Positions 5,929 through 17,775 of a stretch of 44,385 nt of DNA are shown here, one piece after another. This DNA is from Escherichia phage K1-5: sequence record NC_008152.1; one strand, written 5' to 3'. Under the pieces are notes generated by a model. It searched no databases. It was not told the origin of the DNA and saw only the letters and a list, made by a program, of their open reading frames with translations. The position numbers were made by a program, and so were the translations under genes. Within the stretch, counting starts at the first letter, position 1. Each line of letters opens with the position of its first letter.

Positions 5929-5936
5929 TATTAATA

Positions 5937-5966
5937 GGCCATTCCTTCGGGAGTGGCCTTTCTTTT
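5937..5966 (+). terminator. Hairpin with UUCG-type loop plus T-run just after the RNAP gene
   Basis: ggccattcc-ttcg-ggagtggcc followed by tttctttt. Confidence 0.55.
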
Positions 5967-6001
5967 ACCTACTACCTGTAACATTTCATTAACATAAAAG
6001 T

Positions 6002-6017
6002 GTCTCACATGTGAGAC
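6002..6017. promoter_or_regulatory. 16-bp perfect palindrome GTCTCACATGTGAGAC (copy 1)
   Basis: Read directly; immediately upstream of promoter 6020. Confidence 0.6.
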
Positions 6018-6019
6018 TT

Positions 6020-6040
6020 ATTTACCGGACACTATAGGAT
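6020..6040 (+). promoter_or_regulatory. Phage RNAP promoter (early-type variant)
   Basis: atttaccggacactataggat; 2 nt downstream of a 16-bp palindrome. Confidence 0.6.
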
Positions 6041-6081
6041 AGCCGTCGGAGACGGGAAAGAAAGGGAAGATAAAGGATATA

Positions 6082-6140
6082 AAGGAAGTAATAGGTATTA
6101 AAGGTTATATAGGTTATCTAGGAATACCTATTACCTTCTT
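6082..6140. other. AT-rich dyad element (candidate primary replication origin)
   Basis: 12-bp inverted arms gtaataggtatt (6088..6099) and aatacctattac (6123..6134) flanking aaaggttatataggttatctagg; lies between two phage promoters after the RNAP gene. Confidence 0.4.
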
Positions 6141-6182
6141 CCTTCCTCTTATTACCACTCAGAGGAAGGGCAGACCTAGGTT

Positions 6183-6198
6183 GTCTCACATGTGAGAC
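6183..6198. promoter_or_regulatory. 16-bp palindrome GTCTCACATGTGAGAC (copy 2)
   Basis: Read directly; upstream of promoter-like 6204. Confidence 0.6.
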
Positions 6199-6203
6199 TT
6201 CGT

Positions 6204-6224
6204 ATTTACCGGACAGTATAGATA
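6204..6224 (+). promoter_or_regulatory. Phage RNAP promoter-like variant
   Basis: atttaccggacagtatagata; preceded by a second copy of the 16-bp palindrome. Confidence 0.4.
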
Positions 6225-6251
6225 AGATTAACTCACTTTGGAGATTTAACC

Positions 6252-6380
6252 ATGCGCAACTTTGAGAAGATGGCCCGTAAAGCTAACCGTTTTGACATGG
6301 AAGAGGGGCAGAAGAAAGGCAAGAAGCTGAATAAGCCTGTCCGTGACCGTGCATCTAAACGCGCTGCGTGGGAGTTCTAA
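6252..6380 (+). CDS. Small basic protein (42 aa), below ORF-track cutoff
   Basis: GGAGA RBS about 7 nt before ATG; MRNFEKMARKANRF...; ends just before the primase start. Confidence 0.35.
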   Translation: MRNFEKMARKANRFDMEEGQKKGKKLNKPVRDRASKRAAWEF

Positions 6381-6383
6381 GTT

Positions 6384-8372
6384 ATGGCTATTATTCAGAA
6401 TGTACCGTGTCCTGCCTGTCAAAAGAATGGACATGATATTACTGGCAACCATCTCATGATATTTGATGATGGTGCCGGCTACTGTAATCGTGGACACTTT
6501 CATGATAATGGTAGACCTTACTATCACAAGCCGGAAGGTGGCATCGAGATAACCGAGTTATCTATTACTGGCAATATCAAATATACACCTTCTCAATTCA
6601 AAGAAATGGAGAAGGAAGGGAAGATAAGCGACCCTAAATTACGTGCCATCGCACTTGGTGGTATGCGTATGAAAGACCGTTGGGAGGTCATGAATGAACA
6701 AGAAAGGGCAGAGCAAGAAGCAGAGTGGAAACTTGATGTTGAATGGTTCCTCACGCTTAAGCGTAAGAACCTTGTTTCCAGGCACATTCGCGGCGACATT
6801 TGCGCATTGTATGATGTACGTGTTGGGCACGATGAAGAGGGTAGAGTCTCACGGCATTACTATCCGCGCTTCGAAAAAGGTGAGCTAGTAGGCGCTAAGT
6901 GTCGCACATTACCTAAAGATTTTAAGTTTGGTCATTTAGGTAAACTCTTTGGTATGCAAGATCTTTTCGGTATGAATACTTTGTCTCACGTGTTAGACAA
7001 GGGAAGACGAAAGGATTGCTTGCTCATTGTCGGCGGCGAACTGGATGCACTAGCAGCGCAGCAGATGCTCCTTGATTCTGCCAAGGGTACTAAGTGGGAA
7101 GGCCAGCCATACCATGTATGGTCTGTCAACAAAGGCGAGTCTTGCCTTGAAGAGATAGTGCAGAACCGTGAGCATATCGCCCAATTCAAGAAGATTATAT
7201 GGGGTTTTGATGGAGATGAGGTAGGGCAGAAGCAGAATCAGCAAGCGGCTCGCCTGTTTCCTGGTAAATCCTATATCCTTGAATACCCCTCTGGTTGCAA
7301 AGATGCTAACAAGGCATTGATGGCTGGCAAGGCTAAAGAATTTGTAGATGCATGGTTTAATGCCAAGTCATCTGATGAAGTCTTTGGTAGCCAGATTAAA
7401 TCTATCGCATCTCAAAGGGATAAGCTCAAGGCTGCACGTCCAGAGCAAGGACTGTCATGGCCTTGGCCTAAGCTGAACAAGGTAACGCTAGGTATTCGTA
7501 AGAACCAGCTTATCATTGTAGGTGCAGGGTCTGGTGTAGGTAAGACTGAGTTCCTTCGTGAAGTAGTTAAGCACCTCATTGAAGAACACGGTGAATCTGT
7601 AGGCATCATTTCTACAGAAGACCCGATGGTCAAGGTGTCCCGTGCTTTTATCGGCAAGTGGATTGATAAGCGTATTGAGTTACCTCCAACCAACGACCCG
7701 AAAGAAGACGGATACCGTGAGGTGTTCGACTATACCGAGGAAGAAGCTAACGCCGCCATTGATTATGTAGCTGATACAGGTAAGCTGTTTGTAGCTGACC
7801 TAGAGGGTGACTATTCGATGGAAAAGGTAGAGCAAACTTGCCTAGAGTTTGAGGCTATGGGTATTTCTAATATCATCATTGATAACTTAACGGGGATTAA
7901 ATTAGATGAGCGTGCTTTTGGTGGGAAGGTTGGTGCACTTGATGAATGCGTCAAGCGGATTGGTACTATCAAAGACCGACACCCGGTTACTATATTCCTT
8001 GTATCACACCTTACACGTCCTCCGGCAAACCGTACCCAACACGAAGAAGGTGGCGAAGTTATCCTTTCTGACTTCCGAGGCTCAGGCGCTATCGGATTCT
8101 GGGCATCTTACGCCTTGGGGATTGAGCGTAATACAAGAGCTGAAACGCTTGACGAAAGGACTACCACGTACATCTCATGTGTCAAAGACCGCGACCAAGG
8201 TATCTACACTGGAACCAAGGTCATGCTTAAGGGTGACATTCAAACCGGACGTTTAATGGAACCACAAGCCCGTACTAAGTCATTTGATACAGGTGAAGCA
8301 AGGCAACAAGAAGTACCAGATTTACCGGATACTATAGAAGAGACTACCTTCGATGAAGAAAGTGAGTTCTGA
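6384..8372 (+). CDS. DNA primase/helicase (T7 gp4-like)
   Basis: 662 aa; N-terminal Cys4 zinc ribbon (CPACQ...YCNRGH), Walker A GAGSGVGKTEF, acidic C-terminus ...DEESEF. Confidence 0.95.
   Translation: MAIIQNVPCPACQKNGHDITGNHLMIFDDGAGYCNRGHFHDNGRPYYHKPEGGIEITELSITGNIKYTPSQFKEMEKEGKISDPKLRAIALGGMRMKDRWEVMNEQERAEQEAEWKLDVEWFLTLKRKNLVSRHIRGDICALYDVRVGHDEEGRVSRHYYPRFEKGELVGAKCRTLPKDFKFGHLGKLFGMQDLFGMNTLSHVLDKGRRKDCLLIVGGELDALAAQQMLLDSAKGTKWEGQPYHVWSVNKGESCLEEIVQNREHIAQFKKIIWGFDGDEVGQKQNQQAARLFPGKSYILEYPSGCKDANKALMAGKAKEFVDAWFNAKSSDEVFGSQIKSIASQRDKLKAARPEQGLSWPWPKLNKVTLGIRKNQLIIVGAGSGVGKTEFLREVVKHLIEEHGESVGIISTEDPMVKVSRAFIGKWIDKRIELPPTNDPKEDGYREVFDYTEEEANAAIDYVADTGKLFVADLEGDYSMEKVEQTCLEFEAMGISNIIIDNLTGIKLDERAFGGKVGALDECVKRIGTIKDRHPVTIFLVSHLTRPPANRTQHEEGGEVILSDFRGSGAIGFWASYALGIERNTRAETLDERTTTYISCVKDRDQGIYTGTKVMLKGDIQTGRLMEPQARTKSFDTGEARQQEVPDLPDTIEETTFDEESEF
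8320..8340 (+). promoter_or_regulatory. Near-consensus phage promoter inside the 3' end of the primase/helicase gene
   Basis: atttaccggatactatagaag. Confidence 0.45.
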
Positions 8373-8387
8373 TTAGTGTATTTATCA

Positions 8388-8413
8388 GGCTTGTCTCACA
8401 TGTGAGACAGGCT
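8388..8413. promoter_or_regulatory. Extended hairpin around palindrome copy 3
   Basis: caggcttGTCTCACATGTGAGACaggctc; follows the primase/helicase stop. Confidence 0.6.
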
Positions 8414-8447
8414 CTTATTAAGTACATTAAATAACTGGAGATTGATT

Positions 8448-9131
8448 ATGTATAACTTAGTGTTGAATGTAGGTGACTTTGTACGCAACATCAAGAAAGA
8501 TTCAAGTCGCTATCTTTGCCGTGGTGTTGTAACCTTTGTAGGTGAGAACCTGTATTATGTAGAATATCGCAGTGGTGTTAAGCAATATTACCACAAGAAG
8601 ACAGCACATAAATATCTTGAAAAGATTGTAGAGATAAACAATCAATGTAAGTGCATACATGATGAGGTTTGCGATAAATGTGCTCGCCAGATGCTTAAGA
8701 ATTTCCTAGCTCCTCTTTATTATGGTGCTGGTCCTCAAACACTAGCAGAGTGCATGGCAGAAAAGAAAACCACACTCAAGAAAGAGCGTCGCAATGTAAT
8801 CACTGGTAAGACTCAAAGTGAGATGATTAAGCAATGTGGCACTGCATTAGGTGTTACACAGTTTAATACTCGTGCATTGGGTAAATCCACAGGACAAGCT
8901 ATGGTAAAGATTGGAGAAGCCATGATGCATCCAAATGTACCTGTGCGAATCATGGATGTTGACCATGCAATCACAGAACAAGGTACGCAACGACGTGTAA
9001 TTAATAAGCATTTTGCCGACACTATAGAAGGCATTATTCGTAAGCAAGGGTTGAAAGGTCTTCACATCTTAAATGGTGAAGAATTACTGTACCTACCTAT
9101 CGTTACTGAAGAAACATACGTGAATATCTAA
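8448..9131 (+). CDS. Hypothetical protein (227 aa)
   Basis: Track ORF 8442 (TTG); ATG 8448 with GGAG RBS; Cys-rich segment CKCIHDEVCDKC. Confidence 0.6.
   Translation: MYNLVLNVGDFVRNIKKDSSRYLCRGVVTFVGENLYYVEYRSGVKQYYHKKTAHKYLEKIVEINNQCKCIHDEVCDKCARQMLKNFLAPLYYGAGPQTLAECMAEKKTTLKKERRNVITGKTQSEMIKQCGTALGVTQFNTRALGKSTGQAMVKIGEAMMHPNVPVRIMDVDHAITEQGTQRRVINKHFADTIEGIIRKQGLKGLHILNGEELLYLPIVTEETYVNI
9010..9030 (+). promoter_or_regulatory. Promoter-like core inside coding sequence
   Basis: attttgccgacactatagaag; core conserved, upstream part divergent. Confidence 0.25.
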
Positions 9132-9141
9132 GGAGTTAATC

Positions 9142-9360
9142 ATGACTAAGGTATTAATTTATATGCGTGGACCTCATAAATGCTATGCAGTTGTAGCACC
9201 AAATGGTGTTAAGCCTTATCGTACTTCAAAAAGATTGGCATTAATAGGTGCTAGTAGTAGTGCAAGTTTCCAAATGGAACTTTTTGGTCATTGGACTGAA
9301 AGGCAATTCCGTGAGGATTTTAAAGTCATTGGCAGCTTCATGGTGAAATATGCAGAATAA
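9142..9360 (+). CDS. Hypothetical protein (72 aa)
   Basis: TAAGGAG RBS; ORF track. Confidence 0.5.
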   Translation: MTKVLIYMRGPHKCYAVVAPNGVKPYRTSKRLALIGASSSASFQMELFGHWTERQFREDFKVIGSFMVKYAE

Positions 9361-9559
9361 ACATAGTCTTAGAATGTTCGATGGTCATGAAAACCTGCAA
9401 GCCAAGATTACTAACCAAGCCTTCCTGTTCGCACAGTTAACTATGGCTGAGGCTAAGAAGAATAGTCTCACTCGTGAACAGGTTATCAAGGAGGCCACTT
9501 GGGAACCACACCAAGGTAAATATATGGGCCACAAATTAACTGTAACACGCAGTCGATAA
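9350..9559 (+). CDS. Hypothetical protein (69 aa)
   Basis: ORF track; start overlaps end of previous gene. Confidence 0.45.
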   Translation: MQNKHSLRMFDGHENLQAKITNQAFLFAQLTMAEAKKNSLTREQVIKEATWEPHQGKYMGHKLTVTRSR

Positions 9560-9617
9560 GTCAAGGGTTGTCCAACGTGTTGGACAGCCTTTCATCATAT
9601 TGATTGGGAGGTATTAA

Positions 9618-9770
9618 ATGACTAAGTTTACTATGCAAGACCTCATTAAATTACGTGATGAAATAGAATCACCGGAAGTTAATACAGAGTTTCACTACAT
9701 TGATCCACGAGATAAACGAGAGATTCCTGATTATCAGATTGAGACGGAGTTAATGTATGAAGATTATTGA
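9618..9770 (+). CDS. Small acidic protein (50 aa), below ORF-track cutoff
   Basis: GGGAGG RBS then ATG 9618; stop overlaps the DNA polymerase start. Confidence 0.4.
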   Translation: MTKFTMQDLIKLRDEIESPEVNTEFHYIDPRDKREIPDYQIETELMYEDY

Positions 9771-12297
9771 TTGGAAGAAGGAAGCAGAAGGCCGTATCCT
9801 AGTGATGGATGCGGAGGCTAAAGGCCTGCTGGGTGCTATCCGCTACGGTCATCGTGAAGATGTACACATTATTTGCTGCATGGACTTGCTCACCACTGAG
9901 GAGTTCCTCTTCTTCGACCCATATGAGATGCGTGACCCTGAAGCAAGGGAACACTTGAAAGAGTGGGAAGGCCATCAAGATGGGACCTTGGTTGATGGTG
10001 TTAACTTCCTAAAGCACTGTGAAGCCATCGTCTCACAGAACTTCCTAGGCTATGACGGGCTTCTCTTTGAGAAAGCCTTCCCTGACATCTGGAAGGGATT
10101 TAACTACACCGAGAGGCGCGGCAAGGGCAGACTACGTGCTGACTTGTGTCCGGTACGCGTCATGGATACGCTGGTCATGAGTCGCCTGTTAAACCCAGAT
10201 AGACGCCTTCCTCCGCAAGCATATGCCAAAGGTATGGGTAACGTTGCCCCTCACTCAATTGAGGCGCACGGCATTCGTATAGGCCGTTATAAGCCGGAGA
10301 ACGAGGATTGGTCTAAACTAACTGACCACATGGTACATCGTGTACGCGAGGACGTGGCGATAGGCCGTGACCTATTCCTCTGGCTATTTAACGGAGAATG
10401 GACGGAGCACAAACGCCGTGGCGTGAATAAACGCACTGGCCTAGGTATTGAGACAGCCTTCCACATGGAGTCCATTGTGACGCTGGAGATGAGCCGTCAG
10501 GCCGAGCGTGGATTCCGTCTGGATATAGATAAAGCATTAGCACGATGCGAGGAATTGGACGCTAAGATTGATGAGACAGTCGCAGCGTTCCGTCCGCACA
10601 TGCCTATGCGTATCAAGTCTAAACCTTTTAAACCGGAAGAAAAGAATGAAGTATGCCAACGCGCAAATGAGTATGGAGCTAGCAACAATATACCTACTGT
10701 CCTTGACCCCTCTCACTTTCTTCACGCAGAGAGACGAGGAGATCGCAAGACAGTATGGAGTGTCACTACTAAGTCTGGTGATTGGTCGGCTAGCGTCAAG
10801 AAAGACTTTCCTCACCTTAGAGGAAACCGTAATGACACGCCAAGTGTCAAGTGGATTGGCGCTTACTCGCCTGTTACTTTCGAAGAGATTCCCTTGGGTA
10901 ACAGGGATACAGTTAAGCAAGTGCTCTATGATTATGGATGGAAAGGTGTTGAATTTAACGATACCGAGCAAGCGCATCTCGATGAGCATGGCGTATTACC
11001 CAAGCCTTGGAGTGGGAAGATAAATGAAAAGTCCCTTACTTTATGGCAAGAGAGAGCCGCACGTGAAGGTAAAACAGTCCCTGATTGGTGCTTGGGTATC
11101 GCTGCATGGTACATACTCGTATCCCGTCGTGGTCAGATCCTCAACCGTGGTGACGTTGAAGCCTTCGACCAGAAGGGGGTGTGGCCTTCGCAAGCTGGTA
11201 TACGAAAGTGTCGCGGCCTTGTACCTGTAGCATTTAACAAGGAGTTAGGAATCAATGCGCAGCAATACTACGAAAGGTACGGATGCTGGCCTACGTCAGA
11301 CAAGGATGACGGAGAATGGCGTGTGCCAGCTATTGCTATTAGTATTGGAACTTCTACGTTCCGTATGCGTCATCGTAACGTGGTTAATATTCCTGCCCGT
11401 GGCTTGTATCCTTTACGTGATTTATTCATAGCAGGGAAAGGCAAGCTAATCCTTGGTTGTGACGGTGCAGGTCTTGAACTGCGTGTCCTGTCTCACTTCA
11501 TGAATGACCCTGAGTACCAAGAGATTGTACTGCACGGTGATATTCATACGCATAACCAGATGAAGGCTGGTCTTCCTAAGCGTGATATGGCGAAGACATT
11601 TATATATGCCTTCCTATATGGGTCTGGTATAGCTAACCTTGCAGCAGTATGTGGTGTTACTGAGGAAGAAATGGAGGAAGTTGTGGCAAGATTTGAGGTT
11701 GAACTACCATCTCTTGCACGTCTTCGTGAGAATGTTATCGCACAAGGTAACAAGTTTGGCTACCTACAAGCACCTGATGGTCATTGGGGTCGCATCCGTA
11801 TGTCTGGTGGTGAACTTAAAGAACACACTATGCTTAACGTACTACTCCAGATGACTGGTTCTCTGTGTATGAAATACGCATTGGTCAGAGCGTTTGCAGT
11901 GATGCGCAAGGAAGGTGTGGCCTTAGATAGCATGGGAAACCCTTGCGGTATAGCTAACGTGCACGATGAAATCCAGATGGAAGTCCCTGAAGATGAGGTC
12001 TTGTATCTCAACTACGACTTGCCTTTCACCTTAGAAGGGTTCGAAACAGAGAAGGCTGCTGTGAAAGCAGTGTTCGATGCAGAGGAGAAACGTGTTCATG
12101 TGGATTCTGAAGGACGTATGTGGTCTGCTGCAAATCTCGTTAGTGTTGATGCTGGTGTACTTCATTGCCAGCGTCGTTATCACCGTGCAGGGCATATCAT
12201 TGCCGACGCAATGACCTGGGCGGGTCAGTACCTGAAGATGCGTTGTCCGATGGCAGGTGAGTATAAGATTGGTGCAAGTTGGAAGGAAACACACTGA
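9757..12297 (+). CDS. Family A DNA polymerase with 3'-5' exonuclease domain (T7 gp5-like)
   Basis: 846 aa; exo motif VMDAEAKG, pol motif A CDGAGLELRVLSHF, motif B RDMAKTFIYAFLYGSG, motif C VHDEIQ. Confidence 0.97.
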   Translation: MKIIDWKKEAEGRILVMDAEAKGLLGAIRYGHREDVHIICCMDLLTTEEFLFFDPYEMRDPEAREHLKEWEGHQDGTLVDGVNFLKHCEAIVSQNFLGYDGLLFEKAFPDIWKGFNYTERRGKGRLRADLCPVRVMDTLVMSRLLNPDRRLPPQAYAKGMGNVAPHSIEAHGIRIGRYKPENEDWSKLTDHMVHRVREDVAIGRDLFLWLFNGEWTEHKRRGVNKRTGLGIETAFHMESIVTLEMSRQAERGFRLDIDKALARCEELDAKIDETVAAFRPHMPMRIKSKPFKPEEKNEVCQRANEYGASNNIPTVLDPSHFLHAERRGDRKTVWSVTTKSGDWSASVKKDFPHLRGNRNDTPSVKWIGAYSPVTFEEIPLGNRDTVKQVLYDYGWKGVEFNDTEQAHLDEHGVLPKPWSGKINEKSLTLWQERAAREGKTVPDWCLGIAAWYILVSRRGQILNRGDVEAFDQKGVWPSQAGIRKCRGLVPVAFNKELGINAQQYYERYGCWPTSDKDDGEWRVPAIAISIGTSTFRMRHRNVVNIPARGLYPLRDLFIAGKGKLILGCDGAGLELRVLSHFMNDPEYQEIVLHGDIHTHNQMKAGLPKRDMAKTFIYAFLYGSGIANLAAVCGVTEEEMEEVVARFEVELPSLARLRENVIAQGNKFGYLQAPDGHWGRIRMSGGELKEHTMLNVLLQMTGSLCMKYALVRAFAVMRKEGVALDSMGNPCGIANVHDEIQMEVPEDEVLYLNYDLPFTLEGFETEKAAVKAVFDAEEKRVHVDSEGRMWSAANLVSVDAGVLHCQRRYHRAGHIIADAMTWAGQYLKMRCPMAGEYKIGASWKETH

Positions 12298-12413
12298 TGG
12301 ACAGGTTTGATATTGTTTGCCTATTCTCTACCTTCTTTCTTATATTCCTTATGCTTGCTTGCTATGGAAGTATGCGATTAGATATACCTGATGAAGAGGA
12401 GGGTTACGATTGA
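12297..12413 (+). CDS. Tiny hydrophobic peptide (38 aa)
   Basis: ATG overlaps DNAP stop (TGATG); MDRFDIVCLFSTFFLIFLMLACYG... is a single predicted TM helix. Confidence 0.3.
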   Translation: MDRFDIVCLFSTFFLIFLMLACYGSMRLDIPDEEEGYD

Positions 12414-12511
12414 TGCAGGCATCTTTTATTATTCTTGGAGTCATATTATTTATGGTAGTATTCTGGGCTTTCTCTGGCATTGACCCAGATTGTGATGGTA
12501 ACTACGACTGA
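12413..12511 (+). CDS. Tiny hydrophobic peptide (32 aa)
   Basis: GAGGAGGG RBS 9 nt upstream; MQASFIILGVILFMVVFWAF... TM-like. Confidence 0.3.
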   Translation: MQASFIILGVILFMVVFWAFSGIDPDCDGNYD

Positions 12512-12579
12512 GTTATACTCAAGGTCACTTACGAGTGGCCTTTATGAATAACTTATTCCTACTTATTTTGTCTAACATG

Positions 12580-12600
12580 ATTTACTGGACACTATAGAAG
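12580..12600 (+). promoter_or_regulatory. Phage RNAP promoter (perfect consensus)
   Basis: atttactggacactatagaag. Confidence 0.8.
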
Positions 12601-12666
12601 GAAAGCATAGGTAATCTAGGTTTATAAGGTAGTATAGGTAATTAAGTAAATATAGGAGATATAAAT

Positions 12667-13044
12667 ATGTCTATGGTAACTACTCTGGTATTCGTGGCTC
12701 AATACTTTCGTGGTCTTGCTAATAAGTTCAAGTCCAAGGCTATCAAAGCTATTGAGGCTCGCATCGAAGCAGTACAGGCAGAGCAAGTTAAAGTTGAAGA
12801 ACATCGTAGTTCTCAAATGATTGACTGTCATAACCGCTACTATGCATCTCGTGATGAACTAAATGCACGTCAAGTCAAAGAGGTAGAAGATATGCTGGCA
12901 CGTCACCAGCAAGAGCGTGACAGCCTGAAAGCTGAATTTGAAGAGAACAAGGCATCAATTGCTCTTGTACATCAAGCTGCATCTGACAGTCTGAAGAAAG
13001 AGATTGTTATGCTGGAAATCGAACTGGATAACCTGACCAAATAA
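12667..13044 (+). CDS. Hypothetical coiled-coil protein (125 aa)
   Basis: AGGAGA RBS; downstream of a consensus phage promoter. Confidence 0.6.
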   Translation: MSMVTTLVFVAQYFRGLANKFKSKAIKAIEARIEAVQAEQVKVEEHRSSQMIDCHNRYYASRDELNARQVKEVEDMLARHQQERDSLKAEFEENKASIALVHQAASDSLKKEIVMLEIELDNLTK

Positions 13045-13053
13045 GGGGGGGTT

Positions 13054-13353
13054 ATGATGGAAGAAGTAATTCAAGCTAAACATGTAGGTATTATCTTTCG
13101 CGATCTAGAGCAGCGTAAAGTTGCAGGTCATACTCGTCTGGCTAAAGAGGAAGACACCGCAATCACTACTGTAGAACAAGCAGATGCCTATCGTGGACCA
13201 GAGTTCACTCAAGGTGAAACTTGTCACCAATTGAGCCTATCAATTTGTGACACTATGGCTATTGTAAATGTGCAAGAAGTCGAAGAGGGTGAGTGTGTCA
13301 GTTACATCTACCCTTTAGATACTATTGCACGCATTAAGGTAATCCATAAGTAA
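13054..13353 (+). CDS. Hypothetical protein (99 aa)
   Basis: GGGGGG RBS-like tract before ATG; ORF track. Confidence 0.5.
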   Translation: MMEEVIQAKHVGIIFRDLEQRKVAGHTRLAKEEDTAITTVEQADAYRGPEFTQGETCHQLSLSICDTMAIVNVQEVEEGECVSYIYPLDTIARIKVIHK

Positions 13354-13373
13354 TTACTAGACACTATAGAACA
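13353..13373 (+). promoter_or_regulatory. Phage RNAP promoter variant
   Basis: attactagacactatagaaca. Confidence 0.45.
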
Positions 13374-13522
13374 ATAGGTCGGCTTAGTTCGGCCTATGAT
13401 TGTAAAGTGTTGTTGATGTTGAACCATTGTGCATCTTGCACAACCCGATACCGTATAGGGCTTTCTAGTGAGTACATGCTTGTGCTCAGTACAAAGCTAA
13501 CTGACAATAGGAGACTAAATAA

Positions 13523-14329
13523 ATGGCACGTGGTGATTTTGATTTTGGTGCTCAGGTTACTAAATCTGAAGGTAAAGTCTTTAAGAATCCAGAAGTAGGT
13601 GATCATGAAGCAGTAATCTCTGGCATCATTCATGTTGGTTCCTTCCAAGACATCTTTAAGAAAGGTAATACCACTGAAGTTAAGAAGCCAGCAAACTTTG
13701 TTCTGGTTAAGATTGTCCTGATGGGTGACGATGACAAGAACGAAGATGGTTCTCGCATGGAACAATGGATGGCTGTGCCTCTGAAGTCTGGTGATAAGGC
13801 AACACTGACTAAGTTCCTGAATGCAGTTGACCCTAAAGAGTTGCTGGGTGGCTTCGATGATTTCATTGGTGAATGCCTGACTGCAACGATGGTCGGTTCT
13901 GGTGATAAGAATGACGATGGCTCATTCAAGTATGTTAACTGGAAGGGATTTGGTGGTATGCCGGACAAGCTGAAGAAACTGGTCATTGCTCAGGTTGAAG
14001 AGGAAGGTCTGTCTATGACAGGTCACATTACCTTCGACAAGCTGACCAAAGAAATCCTTGATGACATCCCAGCCAACTTGGTGCGTCAATACTTCCTGAA
14101 CGAGACGCCTCGTGGTAAGAACCTGTCTGTTGCTGGTTCTCACGTAGAAGCAATCATTAAAGCTGCTCGTGAAGAAGACCCAGAATGGAAGAAGGCTAAG
14201 AAGAAAGACGAGGAAGATGCTACCCCAGCTAATCGTAAATCTCTGGATACTGGTGAGTCTGTTCCACAGGAAGTACCTGAAGCAGAAGATACTCCTGCAC
14301 CGGAGATGGATGAGGACGCGGAATATTAA
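13523..14329 (+). CDS. Acidic-tailed protein (268 aa), candidate ssDNA-binding protein
   Basis: AGGAGA RBS; lies between DNAP and exonuclease; C-terminus ...PEMDEDAEY is an acidic tail ending in an aromatic residue, as in T7 gp2.5. Function is inferred only. Confidence 0.45.
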   Translation: MARGDFDFGAQVTKSEGKVFKNPEVGDHEAVISGIIHVGSFQDIFKKGNTTEVKKPANFVLVKIVLMGDDDKNEDGSRMEQWMAVPLKSGDKATLTKFLNAVDPKELLGGFDDFIGECLTATMVGSGDKNDDGSFKYVNWKGFGGMPDKLKKLVIAQVEEEGLSMTGHITFDKLTKEILDDIPANLVRQYFLNETPRGKNLSVAGSHVEAIIKAAREEDPEWKKAKKKDEEDATPANRKSLDTGESVPQEVPEAEDTPAPEMDEDAEY

Positions 14330-14338
14330 GGAGAAAGG

Positions 14339-14557
14339 ATGAAAGTACAAATCGTAACCCTGCACTGCAAGAAAGGAATTACAACTCTTGGCGGCAACAC
14401 TTTTCACTCCTTCTCTGAAGGGGACACATATGCCGACCTGCACTACATCTGGCGCGACGGACAGCACGTGGTGAACTACAGCGACCCAGCTACGGGGAAA
14501 CGCCACGGCGTATCGCTTCCGGCGCATGACATTGCTCAGGTGAACACAGTTTTATAA
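14339..14557 (+). CDS. Hypothetical protein (72 aa)
   Basis: AAGGAGAAAGG RBS. Confidence 0.5.
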   Translation: MKVQIVTLHCKKGITTLGGNTFHSFSEGDTYADLHYIWRDGQHVVNYSDPATGKRHGVSLPAHDIAQVNTVL

Positions 14558-14558
14558 A

Positions 14559-14574
14559 GTCTCACGTGTGAGAC
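14559..14574. promoter_or_regulatory. Palindrome variant GTCTCACGTGTGAGAC (copy 4)
   Basis: Loop differs (CGTG vs CATG), stem conserved; upstream of promoter 14590. Confidence 0.55.
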
Positions 14575-14589
14575 AAATCGGTGTCCGGT

Positions 14590-14610
14590 ATTTACTGGAC
14601 ACTATAGAAG
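14590..14610 (+). promoter_or_regulatory. Phage RNAP promoter (perfect consensus)
   Basis: atttactggacactatagaag; 15 nt downstream of a palindrome variant. Confidence 0.8.
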
Positions 14611-14662
14611 AGAAGAATTTTAATCGGCGATAATGCCATAACCAACAAAAGGAGAATTTAAT

Positions 14663-15034
14663 ATGTTCAAGATTGAAACTATCGTAAACCGTGTTGTTAA
14701 AGGTGCTGCTCTGGTATCCGTTGAGTCTTTCATTATCGTCGATGAAACTGATCAACTGGTAGCTGGTACTAAGGCTTACGATACCCGTGAAGAAGCTCAG
14801 GCTAAGATTGACAGCATGGGTAACTTCGCTGCTGGTCTGGAGTTCGCTCGTGCTTGCTTCCCTGAGCAGGCTGACAAAGCTCAGATTGGTAAGGCTAATA
14901 TCGTAGCTGAATATCTGGATTGGGTTGCTGCTGGTAAACCAGTGAAAGAAGTTAAGGCTGCTGAAGAAGCTGAAGCTCCAGCAGAAGAAGTAGCTGCACC
15001 GGAAACTCCGGTAAGTGAAGAGGAAGAATTTTGA
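14663..15034 (+). CDS. Small acidic-tailed protein (123 aa)
   Basis: Consensus phage promoter upstream, AGGAGA RBS, strong hairpin terminator downstream; C-terminus ...VSEEEEF. Confidence 0.6.
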   Translation: MFKIETIVNRVVKGAALVSVESFIIVDETDQLVAGTKAYDTREEAQAKIDSMGNFAAGLEFARACFPEQADKAQIGKANIVAEYLDWVAAGKPVKEVKAAEEAEAPAEEVAAPETPVSEEEEF

Positions 15035-15093
15035 TAATAGCAGGTGTTGCCTCTGTTAGTCCTAGCTGACTATCACGCTCACCTCATCTAATG

Positions 15094-15126
15094 CCCTGTC
15101 TGCCTTAGTGTAGGCAGGGTCTTTTG
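15094..15126 (+). terminator. Hairpin plus T-run terminator
   Basis: ccctgtctgc-cttagt-gtaggcaggg followed by tcttttg; same architecture as the post-capsid terminator. Confidence 0.55.
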
Positions 15127-15151
15127 CGTAATAGTTATTGGAGAATGAATT

Positions 15152-15424
15152 ATGCCGACTATTGAATCTCGAATTGAACTGGACATTAGCTACAATGCAA
15201 TCACCAGACAGTATATTGGGGTTGCCTATGATTACAAAACTGGTGAGAAGCTAGTGGAGGTGAGACAATGGGATGACTATTGGTTAAGACAGAACCTCCA
15301 TGATGCGGTGTCCTCCTTCCTGAAGGAGTGGCCTACATGCGACCAAACTTCGACTTCGGAGCTACAGTATCGGAAGACAATAACCTGTTGCTGTGGCCAA
15401 CTGAAGGTAATCGAATCGCTTTAA
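15152..15424 (+). CDS. Hypothetical protein (90 aa); 3' end overlaps exonuclease start
   Basis: GGAGAATG RBS-like; overlaps the 15337 start by about 88 nt in another frame. Confidence 0.4.
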   Translation: MPTIESRIELDISYNAITRQYIGVAYDYKTGEKLVEVRQWDDYWLRQNLHDAVSSFLKEWPTCDQTSTSELQYRKTITCCCGQLKVIESL

Positions 15425-16365
15425 TAGATGCTGATATGTTACCTTACATCATAGGGTATACAATCAGTGATATGACTTATGTACGAGCCACAACTCGTGT
15501 TAAGTCAGGGCAAGTCCCCTCAATCAAAGATACACCTGAGTGTAAGCAAGCGTGTGACCGTGTGAACTCCTTGCTTAACTCTTGGGTGTATGCAGCAGAA
15601 TGTGATGCAGCTAAGTTGTTCATGACGAAATCAGAAGCTAACTTCCGTGTCCGCCTAGCATTCACCAAGCCTTATAAAGGTCAACGTAAGACCGAGAAGC
15701 CTCCATTCTTCTATGAATTGCGAGAGCATCTCTTAGAGGTTCACGGTGCAATCTTGGCAGATGGAGAGGAAGCAGATGACCTCATGAGTATCGCACAATG
15801 GGACAGCCACCGCCGCTTCCAGCAAGATACAGGTAACGAGTTCCCTATCGGTAGTCCAGAGCATAAAGCATTCTCTGATACTTGCATCGTTTCCTTGGAT
15901 AAGGATTTGATGATTGTTCCCGGTTGGCATCTACAGCCGGGTCAAGAGAAGAAATGGGTAGAGCCTATGGGTTGGCTTGAGCTACGCCGTAAGGCTAATG
16001 GGCAAGTCAAAGATCTAAAAGGTGCTGGCCTCATGTTCCACTATGCACAGATGATTATCGGTGATGATATTGATAACTATGCTGGCATACCAGGTCGTGG
16101 TGCTAAATATGCCTATGATCTTCTCAAAGATTGTAAGACAGAGAAAGAGTTGTACATGGCAGTGCTGGGTGCTTACAAGGCTAAGTTCGGGCATGGACAA
16201 GTTAAAATTAAGAATTACCGAGGTGGTTATCGTATCGGCAAAGCCTTTGACCTAATGCTTGAGTGTGGTCGCTTATCTCACATGGCAAGATTCAAGGGTG
16301 ATATATGGCGAGCCGATAAGAACCCAATCTTGTGGGGAGATGATGCGGAATGGTTAGCAAATTAA
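15337..16365 (+). CDS. 5'-3' exonuclease (FEN-like, T7 gp6-like)
   Basis: Track ORF 15328 (GTG); ATG 15337 with GGAG RBS; motifs LIDADMLPY, SLDKDL, GDDIDNYAGIPGRG. Confidence 0.85.
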   Translation: MRPNFDFGATVSEDNNLLLWPTEGNRIALIDADMLPYIIGYTISDMTYVRATTRVKSGQVPSIKDTPECKQACDRVNSLLNSWVYAAECDAAKLFMTKSEANFRVRLAFTKPYKGQRKTEKPPFFYELREHLLEVHGAILADGEEADDLMSIAQWDSHRRFQQDTGNEFPIGSPEHKAFSDTCIVSLDKDLMIVPGWHLQPGQEKKWVEPMGWLELRRKANGQVKDLKGAGLMFHYAQMIIGDDIDNYAGIPGRGAKYAYDLLKDCKTEKELYMAVLGAYKAKFGHGQVKIKNYRGGYRIGKAFDLMLECGRLSHMARFKGDIWRADKNPILWGDDAEWLAN

Positions 16366-17760: not shown

Positions 17761-17775
17761 TTGACACTATAGAAC
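17755..17775 (+). promoter_or_regulatory. Phage RNAP promoter variant
   Basis: atttagttgacactatagaac; overlaps the phosphoesterase stop codon. Confidence 0.45.

What the first reader, a model, noticed from the sequence alone, without database searches (positions are those of the whole stretch)
12297..12511. Unannotated tiny membrane peptides below the 60-aa ORF cutoff
Several short ORFs with good RBSs and one predicted TM helix were missed by the track: 12297..12413, 12413..12511, 38799..38948, 43984..44112. Basic or acidic ones lie at 6252..6380 and 9618..9770. T7-like phages encode many such small proteins, often host-factor inhibitors.
Basis: seen in the sequence. Interest (0 to 1): 0.4.

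Follow-up and report, generated by a model that had tools for sequence, protein, structure and literature searches.

The report
Already-annotated tiny phage membrane peptides
The flagged short reading frames are real, conserved genes for tiny membrane-anchored peptides of coliphage K1-5, but all of them are already in the public annotation of this phage and its relatives, and their function remains unknown.

Summary
The window is the complete genome of phage K1-5 (SP6-like, Vectrevirus). All six are already deposited as K1-5 proteins with exactly these sequences: genes 8, 12, 13.5, 14, 44 and 49. "Unannotated" is true only relative to a 60-aa ORF list.

The two focal ORFs are gene 13.5 (12297..12413, 38 aa) and gene 14 (12413..12511, 32 aa). 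Both are under purifying selection (pN/pS about 0.2, against 0.8-1.0 in the other frames). They are chained to the DNA polymerase gene by TGATG stop/start overlaps, and a hairpin and the next phage promoter follow them. Each has one hydrophobic helix and an invariant acidic tail sharing the motif P-D-x-[DE]-x-x-Y-D-COOH.

They are accessory cassettes: close relatives carry both, either one, or neither. Gene 14 has no relatives outside SP6-like phages. Its tail resembles the first nine positions of a lanmodulin-type EF-hand loop, but not significantly.

Gene 44 belongs to the lysis cassette, and gene 8 is a T7 gp1.1 homolog. No function is established for 13.5 or 14. The finding is ordinary, correct and not new.

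The parts
9018..9030 (+). Core of the phage (SP6-type) promoter that heads the transcription unit containing genes 10.5-12, DNA polymerase, 13.5 and 14
   Evidence: Exact match to GACACTATAGAAG. There are 13 matches (up to 2 mismatches), all on the + strand, against 1.4 expected by chance.
9757..12297 (+). Gene 13, DNA polymerase (846 aa). Its TGA stop overlaps the ATG of gene 13.5 by one base.
   Evidence: ORF list; annotated as DNA polymerase in K1E, AAPEc6 and others; 31% identity to T7 gp5.
12297..12413 (+). Gene 13.5: a 38-aa peptide, MDRFD + TM helix (about residues 6-24) + invariant acidic tail IPDEEEGYD
   Evidence: Identical to K1E YP_424989 and K1-5 AAR90054. phrog_15860 E=2.8e-30. 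pN/pS 0.19 against 0.82 and 0.98 off-frame across 15 alleles. KD 2.75. An ATG-to-GTG start change is tolerated in R4596.
12396..12403 (+). Shine-Dalgarno sequence GAGGAGGG for gene 14, formed by the EEEG codons of the gene 13.5 tail
   Evidence: Sequence; anti-SD duplex -12.5 kcal/mol, top 0.5% of ATGs in the window.
12413..12511 (+). Gene 14: a 32-aa peptide, MQAS + TM helix (about residues 4-21) + invariant tail D-P-D-x-D-G-N-Y-D-COOH. Its ATG overlaps the gene 13.5 TGA.
   Evidence: Identical to K1E YP_424990 and K1-5 AAR90055. phrog_4539 E=3.7e-17. pN/pS 0.22 against 0.87 and 0.79 off-frame across 10 alleles. Present in SP6 as gene 14. Only its own cluster was found among 1.84 billion representatives.
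12521..12542 (+). Stable RNA hairpin (AAGGUCACU-UACG-AGUGGCCUU) closing the polymerase transcription unit. It is conserved even in genomes that lack 13.5 and 14.
   Evidence: MFE -18.6 kcal/mol for 12500-12570, z = -5.0, 0 of 200 shuffles fold as well. The same sequence follows the polymerase stop codon directly in L010, L012 and L026.
12580..12602 (+). Next phage promoter (ATTTACTGGACACTATAGAAGGA), which heads gene 15
   Evidence: Exact core match at 12588..12600; sequence.
6252..6380 (+). Gene 8: a basic 42-aa protein of the T7 gene 1.1 family
   Evidence: Pfam PF08200 Phage_1_1, 54.4 bits (cutoff 21); phrog_2490. pN/pS 0.41 against 1.16 and 0.98 off-frame. K1-5 AAR90048.
9618..9770 (+). Gene 12: an acidic 50-aa protein whose tail ...ETELMYEDY overlaps the polymerase start by 14 nt
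   Evidence: K1-5 AAR90052 '12'; phrog_31436 E=9.8e-33; SP6 homolog at 57% identity; strong SD, -11.6 kcal/mol.
38799..38948 (+). Gene 44: a 49-aa peptide with a basic N-terminus, one TM helix and a short C-terminal tail carrying an invariant Cys pair. It lies in the lysis cassette between the endolysin and the gene 45 lipoprotein.
   Evidence: phrog_4712 'holin' E=2.8e-27. pN/pS 0.23 against 1.45 and 1.74 off-frame. LL11 note 'Candidate I Spanin'. Neighbour gene 45 has a conserved ...SGC lipobox-like signal.
43984..44112 (+). Gene 49: a 42-aa single-TM peptide near the right end of the genome
   Evidence: K1-5 AAR90089 '49'. Strongest SD of the six, -13.0 kcal/mol. Present in 10 Vectrevirus records, with homologs of about 50% identity in 70-76-kb E. 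coli podophages. No PHROG or Pfam match.

Best explanation
WHAT IT IS (near certain, about 0.95). 12297..12413 and 12413..12511 are genes 13.5 and 14 of phage K1-5. They are two real protein-coding genes that are already annotated in public records.

Expression (shown from sequence). They are the last two cistrons of the DNA-polymerase transcription unit, which runs from the phage promoter at about 9018 to the hairpin at 12521-12542. The three genes are chained by one-base TGATG stop/start overlaps (pol to 13.5 to 14). The strong SD for gene 14 is built from the EEEG codons of the gene 13.5 tail.

Products (inferred from sequence). Each product has a 4-5-residue N-terminus, one hydrophobic helix, and a short invariant acidic tail ending in a free C-terminal Asp. 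The shared motif is P-D-x-[DE]-x-x-Y-D-COOH. At 32-38 aa they are finished before they leave the ribosome tunnel, so membrane insertion must be post-translational.

Evolution (shown). They are dispensable cassettes. Nearly identical backbones carry both, only 13.5, only 14, or neither. The junctions are exact at the ...AC(T/G)A(C/T)TGA gene ends.

HOW IT WORKS (inferred, about 0.35-0.4). The helix is only an anchor, and the invariant acidic tail is the working end, held at the membrane surface. I favour N-in/C-out topology (about 55:45). That puts the tails on the periplasmic face of the inner membrane, where they would bind divalent cations and/or a basic surface of an envelope protein. The gene 14 tail, DPDxDGNYD-COOH, looks like a truncated EF-hand loop with a chelating terminal Asp. 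On this view the peptides are accessory modulators of the infected cell envelope, for example excluding competing phages or tuning a host membrane protein. They would not be core replication factors.
For: Identity:
- Exact-sequence look-up returns the K1-5 accessions AAR90054 and AAR90055.
- K1E genes 13.5 and 14 have the same lengths and junctions.
- Full-length matches to PHROG 15860 and 4539.

Coding:
- pN/pS is 0.19 and 0.22 in frame against 0.79-0.98 off-frame (repeated on full genomes).
- Variable columns by codon position are 15/6/19 and 9/6/18.
- The frame and length are intact in 15 and 10 distinct alleles. An ATG-to-GTG start swap is tolerated.

Expression context:
- TGATG overlaps.
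- SD energies.
- Promoters at 9018 and 12588.
- Hairpin with z = -5.

Tail as the functional end:
- Invariant ACYGS...IPDEEEGYD and WAFSG.DPD.DGNYD, while the TM residues vary.
- The 13.5 tail stays invariant in genomes that lack gene 14, so it is not conserved merely as gene 14's SD.
- hhalign aligns only the final octapeptide. Tail-only shuffle p = 0.03.

Accessory nature:
- All four presence/absence states occur on related backbones.
- 90 records match the region, but only 66 and 67 carry 13.5 and 14.
- The same slot holds HNH endonucleases or a nucleotidyltransferase-like gene in other relatives.

Topology and metal lead:
- LL11's curators report 'TMD N in C out' for both.
- The gene 14 tail aligns to all four lanmodulin EF loops.
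- It is the only six-frame match to D.D.DG..[DE] in the window. Tail shuffles reproduce D.D.DG..D in 0.2% of trials.
- A C-terminal Asp with a free carboxylate is reported to be a potent chelating motif in short EF-derived peptides, and Pro at loop position 2 is rare outside lanmodulins (PMC12603986).
Against: - There is no expression, localisation, topology or phenotype data for these peptides in any paper I could find.
- Positive-inside charges are uninformative: gp14 has no K or R, and gp13.5 has one R on each side. Topology is therefore essentially a guess.
- Translocating a tail with 5-6 acidic residues post-translationally may be inefficient.
- The EF-hand resemblance is not statistically significant (E = 0.77-1.0), and I noticed it post hoc.
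- gp14 stops at loop position 9. It lacks Glu12 and an exiting helix, and it has Tyr where the PROSITE pattern wants L/I/V/M/C.
- The gp13.5 tail does not fit DxDxDG.
- The tight linkage to the polymerase gene, and the enrichment of acidic/aromatic tails among DNA-metabolism genes (8/26 against 0/39), point instead to a cytoplasmic, replication-related role.
- Dispensability in nature does not show what the peptides do when present.
Confidence: 0.4

Rival explanations
1. Cytoplasmic-tail model (N-out/C-in). The acidic, aromatic-ended tails are membrane-anchored versions of the acidic C-terminal tails that T7-group replication proteins use to dock on their partners. gp13.5 and gp14 would tether or titrate the polymerase, or another replication protein, at the inner membrane. 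They are made in step with the polymerase by translational coupling.
For: - They are translationally coupled to the polymerase.
- On the other side, the polymerase is overlapped by gene 12, a soluble acidic peptide ending ...MYEDY.
- Acidic tails with an aromatic residue in the last three positions occur in 8 of 26 ORFs of the 6.0-19.6 kb DNA-metabolism block and in 0 of 39 elsewhere (Fisher p = 3e-4). They include helicase gp9 (...FDEESEF), gp16 (...EMDEDAEY), gp18 and the ligase.
- In T7, the acidic tail of gp2.5 anchors on the polymerase front basic patch, and its C-terminal Phe is essential (PMC12339929 and the references it cites).
- A short uncharged N-terminus (MQAS) is the easier end to push across a membrane post-translationally (inference).
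Against: - The T7 front basic patch (KWKRRWIK, residues 587-594) is not conserved in the K1-5 and SP6 polymerases. The loop is shorter and non-basic, and no 12-residue window of the polymerase has 6 or more K/R.
- The aromatic residue is penultimate (YD-COOH), not C-terminal as in helicase, gp16, gp18 and T7 gp2.5.
- Phages whose polymerase C-terminus is up to 96% identical lack both peptides, so they are not needed for polymerase function.
- LL11's curators predict C-out.
- The enrichment criterion was defined post hoc.
Confidence: 0.2
2. Membrane-perturbing or lysis-timing peptides. The two peptides oligomerise in the inner membrane and alter proton-motive force or holin triggering, in the way antiholins, pinholins or type I toxin peptides do.
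For: - Their size and single-TM architecture resemble small holin or antiholin-like and toxin peptides.
- The phage carries other tiny TM proteins with lysis labels: gene 38 is phrog_920 holin and gene 44 is phrog_4712 holin.
- A related SP6-like phage uses a single-TM pinholin-like protein (PMC4640515).
Against: - They lie in the middle (DNA-metabolism) transcription unit, far from both lysis loci (35.2 kb and 38.3-39.2 kb).
- They match no holin or lysis PHROG or Pfam family.
- The most conserved part is the soluble acidic tail, not the helix. That is the opposite of what a pore or lesion former would show.
- Early depolarisation would harm a phage that needs an energised host for replication (inference).
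Confidence: 0.1
3. The peptides themselves are irrelevant. Either the ORFs are chance open frames, or only the act of translating them matters, for example to keep ribosomes on the 3' end of the polymerase mRNA up to the hairpin.
For: - The ORFs are very short.
- g13.5 has only a modest SD.
- The cassettes are dispensable in nature.
- A nested out-of-frame ORF at 12098..12214 also stays open in all ten genomes without looking constrained, which shows that short open frames can persist here.
Against: - Amino-acid sequence is constrained: pN/pS is about 0.2 only in the annotated frame, and the tails are invariant while synonymous sites vary at pS about 0.37.
- Length is constant across two phage genera.
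- The start codon is retained through an ATG-to-GTG change.
- SD + TM + open-gap ORFs are enriched over the null.
Confidence: 0.03

Closest known systems
K1E gp13.5 / gp14, SP6 gp14, LL11 gp19 / gp20 (PHROG 15860 and PHROG 4539; 'hypothetical protein')
   Same: They are the same genes. The sequence is 100% identical to K1E gp13.5 and gp14 and 87.5% identical to SP6 gp14. The lengths, the position directly after the DNA polymerase and the overlapping junctions all match.
   Different: Nothing of substance. Some relatives carry only one of the two, or neither. No function is recorded for any member.
Acidic C-terminal tails of T7 gp2.5 (SSB) and gp4 (helicase), which dock on T7 DNA polymerase
   Same: Both are short, strongly acidic C-terminal tails with a conserved aromatic residue near the end, encoded in the replication gene block. 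In K1-5 the helicase, gp16, gp18 and the ligase carry such tails.
   Different: gp13.5 and gp14 are membrane-anchored and 32-38 aa long. Their aromatic residue is penultimate, not terminal. The T7 front basic patch is not conserved in the K1-5 polymerase. The topology may put their tails outside the cytoplasm.
EF-hand / DxDxDG metal-binding loops, especially lanmodulin (PDB 6mi5, 8fns)
   Same: The gp14 tail AFSGIDPDCDGNYD aligns to all four lanmodulin loops (for example AFDKLDPDKDGTLD). The matched positions are D1, the unusual P2, D3, D5, G6 and D9, preceded by a helix ending in AF. The only variable tail positions among alleles are loop position 4 and the residue before D1.
   Different: The match is not significant (E = 0.77-1.0). 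The peptide ends at loop position 9, so Glu12 and the exiting helix are absent. Position 8 is Tyr. The 'entering helix' would be a transmembrane helix. gp13.5 does not fit the motif.
Small single-pass inner-membrane proteins: E. coli regulators such as MgrB, AcrZ and MgtS (from my own knowledge), and the YidC-inserted Pf3 coat protein
   Same: They share a size of 30-50 aa, one TM helix and a short functional tail. Pf3 coat and M13 coat are inserted by YidC independently of Sec (PMC9360617). From my own knowledge, acidic tails of such proteins are driven outward by the membrane potential.
   Different: There is no sequence similarity. The bacterial examples are oriented by basic residues, which gp14 lacks entirely. 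No partner is known here.
Phage superinfection-exclusion membrane proteins (T4 Imm and Sp, P22 SieA)
   Same: Both are phage-encoded inner-membrane proteins that are dispensable for growth and vary between close relatives.
   Different: Those proteins are larger and often span the membrane several times. They show no homology to gp13.5 or gp14, and no exclusion phenotype has been tested for gp13.5 or gp14. This is only a functional analogy.
T7 gene 1.1 protein (Pfam PF08200), for 6252..6380; and holin/spanin lysis-cassette proteins (PHROG 4712, 8971), for 38799..38948
   Same: Gene 8 scores 54.4 bits against PF08200 (cutoff 21). Gene 44 matches PHROG 4712 full-length and lies between the endolysin and a lipoprotein-type spanin gene.
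   Different: The function of T7 gp1.1 is unknown. Gene 44's 'holin' label is untested. Its periplasmic part is only about 20 residues, which is short for an i-spanin.

Membership tests
K1E gp13.5 family (PHROG 15860) | Full-length sequence match to the family profile | tested here: met
   E = 2.8e-30, residues 1-38 on profile positions 1-38 of 38; 100% identical to K1E YP_424989.
K1E gp13.5 family (PHROG 15860) | Position immediately after the DNA polymerase gene, with the start overlapping the polymerase stop codon | tested here: met
   TGATG junction in the window and in every locus that carries the gene.
SP6 gp14 family (PHROG 4539) | Full-length sequence match, 32 aa, after the polymerase or after gene 13.5 | tested here: met
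   E = 3.7e-17; 67 phage records including SP6 gene 14; a single cluster in the exhaustive search.
Protein-coding gene (as opposed to a chance ORF) | Purifying selection specific to the annotated frame | tested here: met
   pN/pS is 0.19 and 0.22 in frame against 0.79-0.98 in the other two frames.
Protein-coding gene (as opposed to a chance ORF) | Direct evidence of translation (ribosome profiling, mass spectrometry, tagged protein) | not testable with these tools
   No such data were found in the literature searches.
Single-pass (bitopic) small inner-membrane protein | One hydrophobic segment long enough to span the bilayer | tested here: met
   17-residue Kyte-Doolittle means of 2.75 and 2.74; LL11's curators annotate 'TMD N in C out'.
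Single-pass (bitopic) small inner-membrane protein | Demonstrated membrane localisation and defined topology | not testable with these tools
   Flanking K/R counts are 1 vs 1 (gp13.5) and 0 vs 0 (gp14), so the positive-inside rule gives no answer.
T7-type replisome acidic C-terminal tail | Strongly acidic C-terminal tail | tested here: met
   6 and 4 D/E residues in the last ten residues.
T7-type replisome acidic C-terminal tail | Aromatic residue at the extreme C-terminus | tested here: not met
   Both peptides end in Y-D-COOH, so the aromatic residue is penultimate. Helicase, gp16 and gp18 of the same phage end in F or Y.
T7-type replisome acidic C-terminal tail | Basic docking patch on the polymerase at the position homologous to T7 K587-R591 | tested here: not met
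   The MAFFT alignment shows a shorter, non-basic loop in the K1-5 and SP6 polymerases. Other docking sites were not examined.
EF-hand / DxDxDG metal-binding loop | D-x-D-x-D-G core with an acidic residue at loop position 9 | tested here: met
   gp14 D24-P-D26-C-D28-G29-N-Y-D32 is invariant at all ligand positions across alleles. gp13.5 does not match.
EF-hand / DxDxDG metal-binding loop | Bidentate Glu at loop position 12 and an exiting helix (canonical helix-loop-helix) | tested here: not met
   The protein ends at loop position 9.
EF-hand / DxDxDG metal-binding loop | Statistically significant similarity to a known EF-hand protein, or measured metal binding | tested here: inconclusive
   The best PDB matches are lanmodulin at E = 0.77 and an EF-hand protein at E = 1.0. 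There was no Pfam hit. Metal binding cannot be tested here.
Holin (for 38799..38948, gene 44) | Match to a holin-labelled family, at least one TM helix, adjacency to the endolysin | tested here: met
   phrog_4712 E = 2.8e-27; KD 2.86. The endolysin ends at 38690 and the gene 45 lipoprotein starts at about 39038. Hole-forming activity cannot be tested. LL11's curators prefer 'candidate i-spanin'.
T7 gene 1.1 protein family, Pfam PF08200 (for 6252..6380, gene 8) | Score above the Pfam gathering threshold | tested here: met
   54.4 bits against a cutoff of 21, residues 1-41 on profile positions 1-40 of 40.

The most novel reading that the evidence does not exclude
gp14 would be a minimal, membrane-anchored 'half EF-hand'. 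Its transmembrane helix would serve as the entering helix. The invariant nine-residue tail DPDxDGNYD, ending in a free C-terminal Asp, would form a lanmodulin-like metal-binding loop at the membrane surface. gp13.5 would be a diverged partner sharing the PDx[DE]xxYD-COOH end. Together they would let the phage sense or exploit divalent cations at the inner membrane. Alternatively, if the tails face the cytoplasm, they would clamp replication proteins to the membrane. Either version would assign a first function to a class of phage micro-proteins that is normally ignored.
Probability: 0.12. Interest if true: 0.55.

Novelty: already known. Interest (0 to 1): 0.2.

Why it matters
As a scan result it matters little. 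The ORFs are correct calls, but they duplicate existing annotation, and they show that a 60-aa ORF cutoff hides about a tenth of the genes in an SP6-like phage genome.

The residual value lies in three leads that came out of checking it:
1. The two peptides are exchangeable cassettes bounded by stop/start microhomology next to the polymerase gene. That marks this slot as an accessory-gene hot spot.
2. Their only invariant part is a shared acidic octapeptide ending in a free Asp, which gives a concrete handle for mutagenesis.
3. The gene 14 tail looks like a truncated lanmodulin-type metal loop, which is a cheap hypothesis to test with a synthetic peptide.

Small phage membrane proteins are a large, almost uncharacterised class, and K1-5, K1E and SP6 are used in phage therapy and engineering. 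Knowing whether these cassettes affect superinfection or host range would therefore have some practical use.

Tried and rejected
I used tblastn, degenerate DNA patterns and the exhaustive phmmer search instead.
- Degenerate-pattern scans of IMG/VR and of metagenomes returned only Vectrevirus and Zindervirus contigs with the genes in the same place. No new genomic context was found.
- The exhaustive phmmer search with gp14 found only its own cluster. There are no distant relatives, so no function can be inferred by homology.
- Two 'NhaA antiporter' entries in the gp13.5 90%-identity cluster do not align with gp13.5 at all. This is a clustering artefact.
- Paralogy of 13.5 and 14 is not supported. 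hhalign probability is 2.7%, covering only the last 8 residues. The full-length shuffle gives p = 0.27 and the tail-only shuffle p = 0.03. They share a tail motif, but common descent is not shown.
- Transfer of the T7 acidic-tail/front-basic-patch mechanism was rejected at that site, because the patch is absent from the K1-5 polymerase.
- PDB sequence search gave nothing for gp13.5 and only non-significant EF-hand hits for gp14.
- The sigma-70 promoter and intrinsic-terminator scan of 12000-12800 found nothing above shuffle expectation. The relevant signals are phage promoters and a hairpin without a T-run.
- A polymerase-13.5 fusion by -1 frameshifting was considered. By inspection of the sequence there is no X XXY YYZ slippery heptamer in the last ten polymerase codons, and the -1 frame is open for only about 10 codons upstream. 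I dropped the idea.
- The KBNP1315 lysis paper characterises the gene-38-type holin, not the gene 44 homolog, so it does not settle the role of gene 44.
- Structure prediction was not run. A single 32-38-aa helix-plus-tail peptide would give no discriminating information.

Full report
**Identity of the window.** A megablast of 11500-13500 finds 90 SP6-like phage records, the best being K1E at 96.7% identity. The window is 44,385 bases long and carries both a K5-lyase-sized ORF and an endosialidase-sized tailspike ORF. An exact-sequence look-up of the six peptides returns proteins named '12 [Escherichia phage K1-5]' and '49 [Escherichia phage K1-5]', together with the consecutive accessions AAR90048, AAR90052, AAR90054, AAR90055, AAR90086 and AAR90089. 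The window is therefore phage K1-5 (Autographiviridae, Molineuxvirinae, Vectrevirus). K1-5's own record is not in the phage BLAST collection, where the nearest record is AAPEc6 at about 98%.

**The observation.** All six ORFs exist at the stated coordinates, with ATG starts.
- Four have a hydrophobic stretch good enough for one transmembrane helix. The Kyte-Doolittle 17-residue means are 2.75, 2.74, 2.86 and 2.18.
- One ORF is strongly basic and one strongly acidic.
- The anti-Shine-Dalgarno pairing energy is in the top 0.3-1.2% of all ATGs in the window for genes 14, 49 and 12, and in the top 4% for gene 44.
- It is unremarkable for genes 13.5 and 8, which are similar to the polymerase itself.

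As a null I used ORFs that cannot be genes, namely those on the minus strand or nested in large genes. Of these, 5 of 302 combine a TM-grade segment with an SD motif.

**'Unannotated' is wrong.** K1E annotates genes 13.5 (13642..13758) and 14 (13758..13856) with the same lengths and the same one-base overlaps. UTI89UKE2, ULINTec7, EEc4, Sem4 and LL11 do the same. SP6 has gene 14 directly after its polymerase. LL11, a hand-curated record, even marks ribosome-binding sites and notes 'TMD N in C out' for both peptides. Five of the six peptides belong to PHROG families:

| Gene | PHROG | Other |
|---|---|---|
| 13.5 | 15860 | |
| 14 | 4539 | |
| 44 | 4712, 'holin' | |
| 8 | 2490 | Pfam PF08200, T7 gene 1.1 family, 54.4 bits against a cutoff of 21 |
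| 12 | 31436 | |
| 49 | none | no Pfam match |

**Are 13.5 and 14 really coding?** I collected 15 distinct DNA alleles of gene 13.5 and 10 of gene 14 from GenBank phages, IMG/VR and metagenomes.
- Length and frame are constant.
- One lineage has changed the gene 13.5 start from ATG to GTG while keeping the overlap with the polymerase stop.
- Nei-Gojobori pN/pS is 0.19 (13.5) and 0.22 (14) in the annotated frame. It is 0.79-0.98 in the two other frames of the same DNA. The same holds on ten complete genomes.
- Variable columns fall mainly at codon positions 3 and 1 (15/6/19 and 9/6/18).

The peptide sequences themselves are under selection. That excludes both a chance ORF and a role for translation alone. 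By the same test, gene 44 (0.23 against 1.45 and 1.74) and gene 8 (0.41 against 1.16 and 0.98) are coding. Gene 12 has a 57%-identical SP6 homolog. Gene 49 is invariant in my panel but has homologs of about 50% identity in unrelated 70-76-kb coliphages.

**Anatomy and expression.** Phage promoters (core GACACTATAGAAG) occur 13 times, all on the + strand, including at 9018 and 12588. Between gene 14 and the 12588 promoter lies a strong hairpin at 12521-12542 (-18.6 kcal/mol for the 71-nt stretch, z = -5.0). Genes 13.5 and 14 are therefore the last cistrons of the polymerase transcription unit.

The polymerase stop and the gene 13.5 start share TGATG, and so do the gene 13.5 stop and the gene 14 start. 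The strong SD for gene 14 (GAGGAGGG, 12396-12403) is written in the Glu-Glu-Glu-Gly codons of the gene 13.5 tail. This is classic translational coupling. Inference: the peptides are made at the same time as the polymerase and roughly in proportion to it.

**What is conserved.** In both peptides the hydrophobic helix varies (conservatively), while the membrane-distal end is invariant: ACYGS...IPDEEEGYD in gp13.5 and WAFSG.DPD.DGNYD in gp14. The gp13.5 tail is unchanged in genomes that lack gene 14 (KMB14, R4596, LF31P3, 101117UKE2). So it is not conserved merely as gene 14's ribosome-binding site.

Profile-profile comparison aligns only the last eight residues of the two peptides (PDEEEGYD against PDCDGNYD; P = 0.017, probability 2.7%). 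A segment-preserving shuffle test gives p = 0.27 for the full length and p = 0.03 for the tails. I therefore describe a shared C-terminal motif, P-D-x-[DE]-x-x-Y-D-COOH, and do not claim the genes are paralogs. In 840 kb of held sequence, this motif at a C-terminus occurs only in these two peptides.

**Distribution.** tblastn finds gp13.5 in 66 phage records (Escherichia, Citrobacter, Klebsiella and Raoultella Vectrevirus). It finds gp14 in 67, including nine Salmonella SP6-like phages. The exhaustive HMMER search of 1.84 billion representative proteins returns only gp14's own cluster. Degenerate-pattern scans of viral and metagenomic contigs return only the same phages, with the genes in the same place.

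Anchoring on the polymerase C-terminus in 78 loci shows that the slot after the polymerase is variable:
- Both genes: K1-5, K1E, AAPEc6, EEc4, ULINTec7, LL11.
- Only 14: SP6, UAB_Phi78, L011, L109.
- Only 13.5: CrRp3, KMB14, R4596, LF31P3.
- Neither: L010, L012-L014, L026. In these the polymerase TGA is followed directly by GTTATACTC..., the sequence that follows gene 14 in K1-5.

The junctions are exact, at gene ends that share ...AC(T/G)A(C/T)TGA. The genes therefore behave as removable cassettes. Phages whose polymerase C-terminus is up to 96% identical do without them. In other relatives the slot holds HNH endonucleases or a protein of about 190 aa with a weak PolyA_pol-head (nucleotidyltransferase) match. 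This is the behaviour of accessory genes that act in host interaction or phage competition, not of core replication factors.

**How might they work?** At 32-38 residues the peptides are complete before they emerge from the ribosome, so insertion is post-translational (inference). Small phage coat proteins of this kind, such as Pf3 and M13, use YidC (PMC9360617).

Topology cannot be read from the sequence. gp14 has no Lys or Arg, and gp13.5 has one Arg on each side. LL11's curators report N-in/C-out. From my own knowledge of the Pf3 coat literature, acidic tails are driven to the periplasmic side by the membrane potential. I put N-in/C-out at about 55%.

Two readings of the tail follow.

(a) Periplasmic tail. 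The gp14 tail D24-P-D26-x-D28-G29-N-Y-D32 fits the DxDxDG calcium-loop core. The best, though non-significant, PDB matches are lanmodulin (E = 0.77) and another EF-hand protein (E = 1.0). The alignment covers all four of their loops and includes the rare Pro at loop position 2 and the preceding 'AF' of the entering helix. It is the only six-frame match to D.D.DG..[DE] in the window. Shuffles of the tail recreate D.D.DG..D in 0.2% of trials. The peptide stops at loop position 9. A recent peptide study, however, reports that a C-terminal Asp with a free carboxylate is itself a strong chelating element, and that Pro at position 2 is very uncommon outside lanmodulins (PMC12603986). This is a lead that I noticed post hoc, not a demonstrated homology.

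(b) Cytoplasmic tail. Acidic C-tails with an aromatic residue in the last three positions occur in 8 of 26 ORFs in the DNA-metabolism block and in 0 of 39 elsewhere (p = 3e-4, criterion chosen post hoc). They include helicase gp9, gp16, gp18, the ligase and gene 12, which overlaps the polymerase start. In T7 such tails dock on the polymerase front basic patch, and the terminal Phe is essential (PMC12339929). Against this reading, that patch is absent from the K1-5 and SP6 polymerases, the aromatic residue in gp13.5 and gp14 is penultimate, and the peptides are dispensable.

I favour (a) combined with an accessory, envelope-directed role, at about 0.35-0.4. I give (b) about 0.2, a lysis-timing or membrane-perturbing role about 0.1, and 'peptide irrelevant' about 0.03. 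The rest goes to functions I have not thought of.

**The other four ORFs.**
- Gene 44 (38799..38948) lies between the endolysin (ending at 38690) and gene 45. The gene 45 product has a hydrophobic N-terminus followed by ...SGC, conserved in all ten genomes, as expected of an Rz1-type outer-membrane lipoprotein. Gene 44 has a basic N-terminus, one helix and an invariant C-terminal Cys pair. Its PHROG label is 'holin' and LL11's curators call it a candidate i-spanin. Either way it is a lysis-cassette protein, not a host-factor inhibitor.
- Gene 8 is a T7 gp1.1 homolog.
- Gene 12 is an acidic peptide whose tail is conserved even where the N-terminal part is replaced.
- Gene 49 is a mobile small membrane protein shared with unrelated podophages.

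**Verdict.** The finding is not new, because every ORF is in the public annotation of this very phage. Function remains unknown, and I found no expression or phenotype data in the literature. The modest added value is the cassette behaviour next to the polymerase, the shared invariant acidic octapeptide, and the testable metal-loop resemblance of the gene 14 tail.

Noticed in passing
window 1..44385: The window appears to be the complete genome of coliphage K1-5. It is 44,385 bp and carries both a K5-lyase-size tailspike (39307..41265) and an endosialidase (41351..43786). All six tested peptides are exact K1-5 GenBank proteins. K1-5's own record is absent from the phage BLAST collection, where AAPEc6 (about 98%) is the closest.
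   Followed up: yes
window 12297..12520; loci L007-L049 just after the polymerase stop: The slot after the DNA polymerase is an accessory-gene hot spot. Besides 13.5 and 14 it holds, in different relatives, HNH endonucleases (L017, L023, L043, L044), a 177-194-aa protein with a GGxVRD motif and a sub-threshold PolyA_pol head-domain match (L012-L014, L020, L034; 21.5 bits against a cutoff of 23), an 84-aa two-TM ORF (L027), or nothing. An extra 86-aa ORF (MIKYTAYQLTKD...) sits after the hairpin in ULINTec7, KMB14, L009 and L019.
   Followed up: partly
L036, L037, L038 (about 10-200 nt after the polymerase stop): Distant relatives (56% polymerase identity) carry a different tandem pair of tiny hydrophobic ORFs in the same position: 30 aa MTLYDITGGLLLVLLNLALIWTLGSYIFKE and 32 aa MSIWFYVQATVLISVTLFIWGFIIVASFQNSN. 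They have no acidic tails. The first is frameshifted in L037 and L038, so its reality is doubtful.
   Followed up: no
window 6384..19500 (genes 9, 12, 13.5, 14, 16, 18, 24, 25): Acidic C-terminal tails with an aromatic residue in the last three positions are confined to the DNA-metabolism block: 8 of 26 ORFs there against 0 of 39 elsewhere (p = 3e-4, criterion chosen post hoc). Examples are helicase ...FDEESEF, gp16 ...EMDEDAEY, gp18 ...SEEEEF and ligase ...DEPDFF. This suggests a shared docking code among SP6-group replication proteins, although the T7 front basic patch is not conserved in this polymerase.
   Followed up: partly
window 9730..9790; L004 (K1E) 10850..11130; L104 (EEc4) 10080..10350: Gene junctions upstream of the polymerase are also cassette-like. 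Each upstream gene ends in ...(M/I)YE.. and overlaps the next ATG by 14 nt within a repeated '..AAT(G/C)TATGAA..' junction. K1E and EEc4 have an extra Cys-rich 72-aa gene 12 inserted between the '...ETEAMYE.Y' peptide and the polymerase. In K1-5 and SP6 the peptide abuts the polymerase directly.
   Followed up: partly
window 38975..39235 (gene 45) and 38799..38948 (gene 44): Gene 45, labelled 'Rz-like spanin', probably starts at the ATG at 39038. It encodes MLVTTLLIGSLTTSGC..., a lipoprotein-type signal with an invariant Cys in all ten genomes. It looks like an Rz1-type o-spanin rather than an Rz-type i-spanin. Gene 44 has an invariant C-terminal Cys pair (VVCQxxxCE) and may be its inner-membrane partner, though its periplasmic part is only about 20 residues.
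   Followed up: partly
window 38684..38815: A 43-aa ORF (MVRCVEWCERMVAQAAEDGNYDDWKNYSDLLAQWKGRCNEKAV) overlaps the endolysin end and the gene 44 start. It contains the pentapeptide DGNYD also found in the gp14 tail. The codons differ, so this is probably coincidence.
   Followed up: no
window 43984..44112 (gene 49): This tiny TM peptide has homologs of about 50% identity near the genome ends of unrelated 70-76-kb E. coli podophages (HK2, PE007, UE-S5a/b, UE-M3/M6, PBM-2/3). That implies horizontal exchange of a micro-gene between phage families. Within Vectrevirus it is present in only 10 records and is 95-100% identical.
   Followed up: partly
window 12098..12214 (+1 frame inside the polymerase gene): A nested 38-aa hydrophobic ORF with an SD-like motif (MWILKDVCGLLQISLVLMLVYFIASVVITVQGISLPTQ) stays open in all ten complete genomes, including SP6 and UAB_Phi78 at 76% nucleotide identity. 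Its amino-acid sequence changes freely, so it is probably a by-product of polymerase codon constraints. No formal test for an overlapping gene was done.
   Followed up: partly
window 10568..11230 (K1E genes 13.1 and 13.2 equivalents): The K1E record annotates two ORFs (13.1 and 13.2) nested out-of-frame inside the polymerase gene. The corresponding ORFs exist in the window (10568..11023 and 11024..11230), but later records do not annotate them. They are likely over-annotation.
   Followed up: no
window 12667..13044 (gene 15): RefSeq and PHROG 7450 label this 125-aa coiled-coil protein 'polysaccharide chain length determinant protein'. Pfam gives only a weak sub-threshold UPF0242 hit (17.9 bits against a cutoff of 33.5). 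A homolog with a hydrophobic N-terminus follows the polymerase slot in most SP6-like relatives, including distant ones. The functional label looks unreliable.
   Followed up: partly
protein collection clusters: The 90%-identity clusters returned for the tiny peptides contain unrelated long proteins. NhaA antiporters of 437 and 465 aa sit in the gp13.5 cluster, with no alignment at E <= 100. The 114-aa DUF882 endolysin sits in the gene 44 cluster. Cluster membership for very short proteins is not trustworthy.
   Followed up: yes
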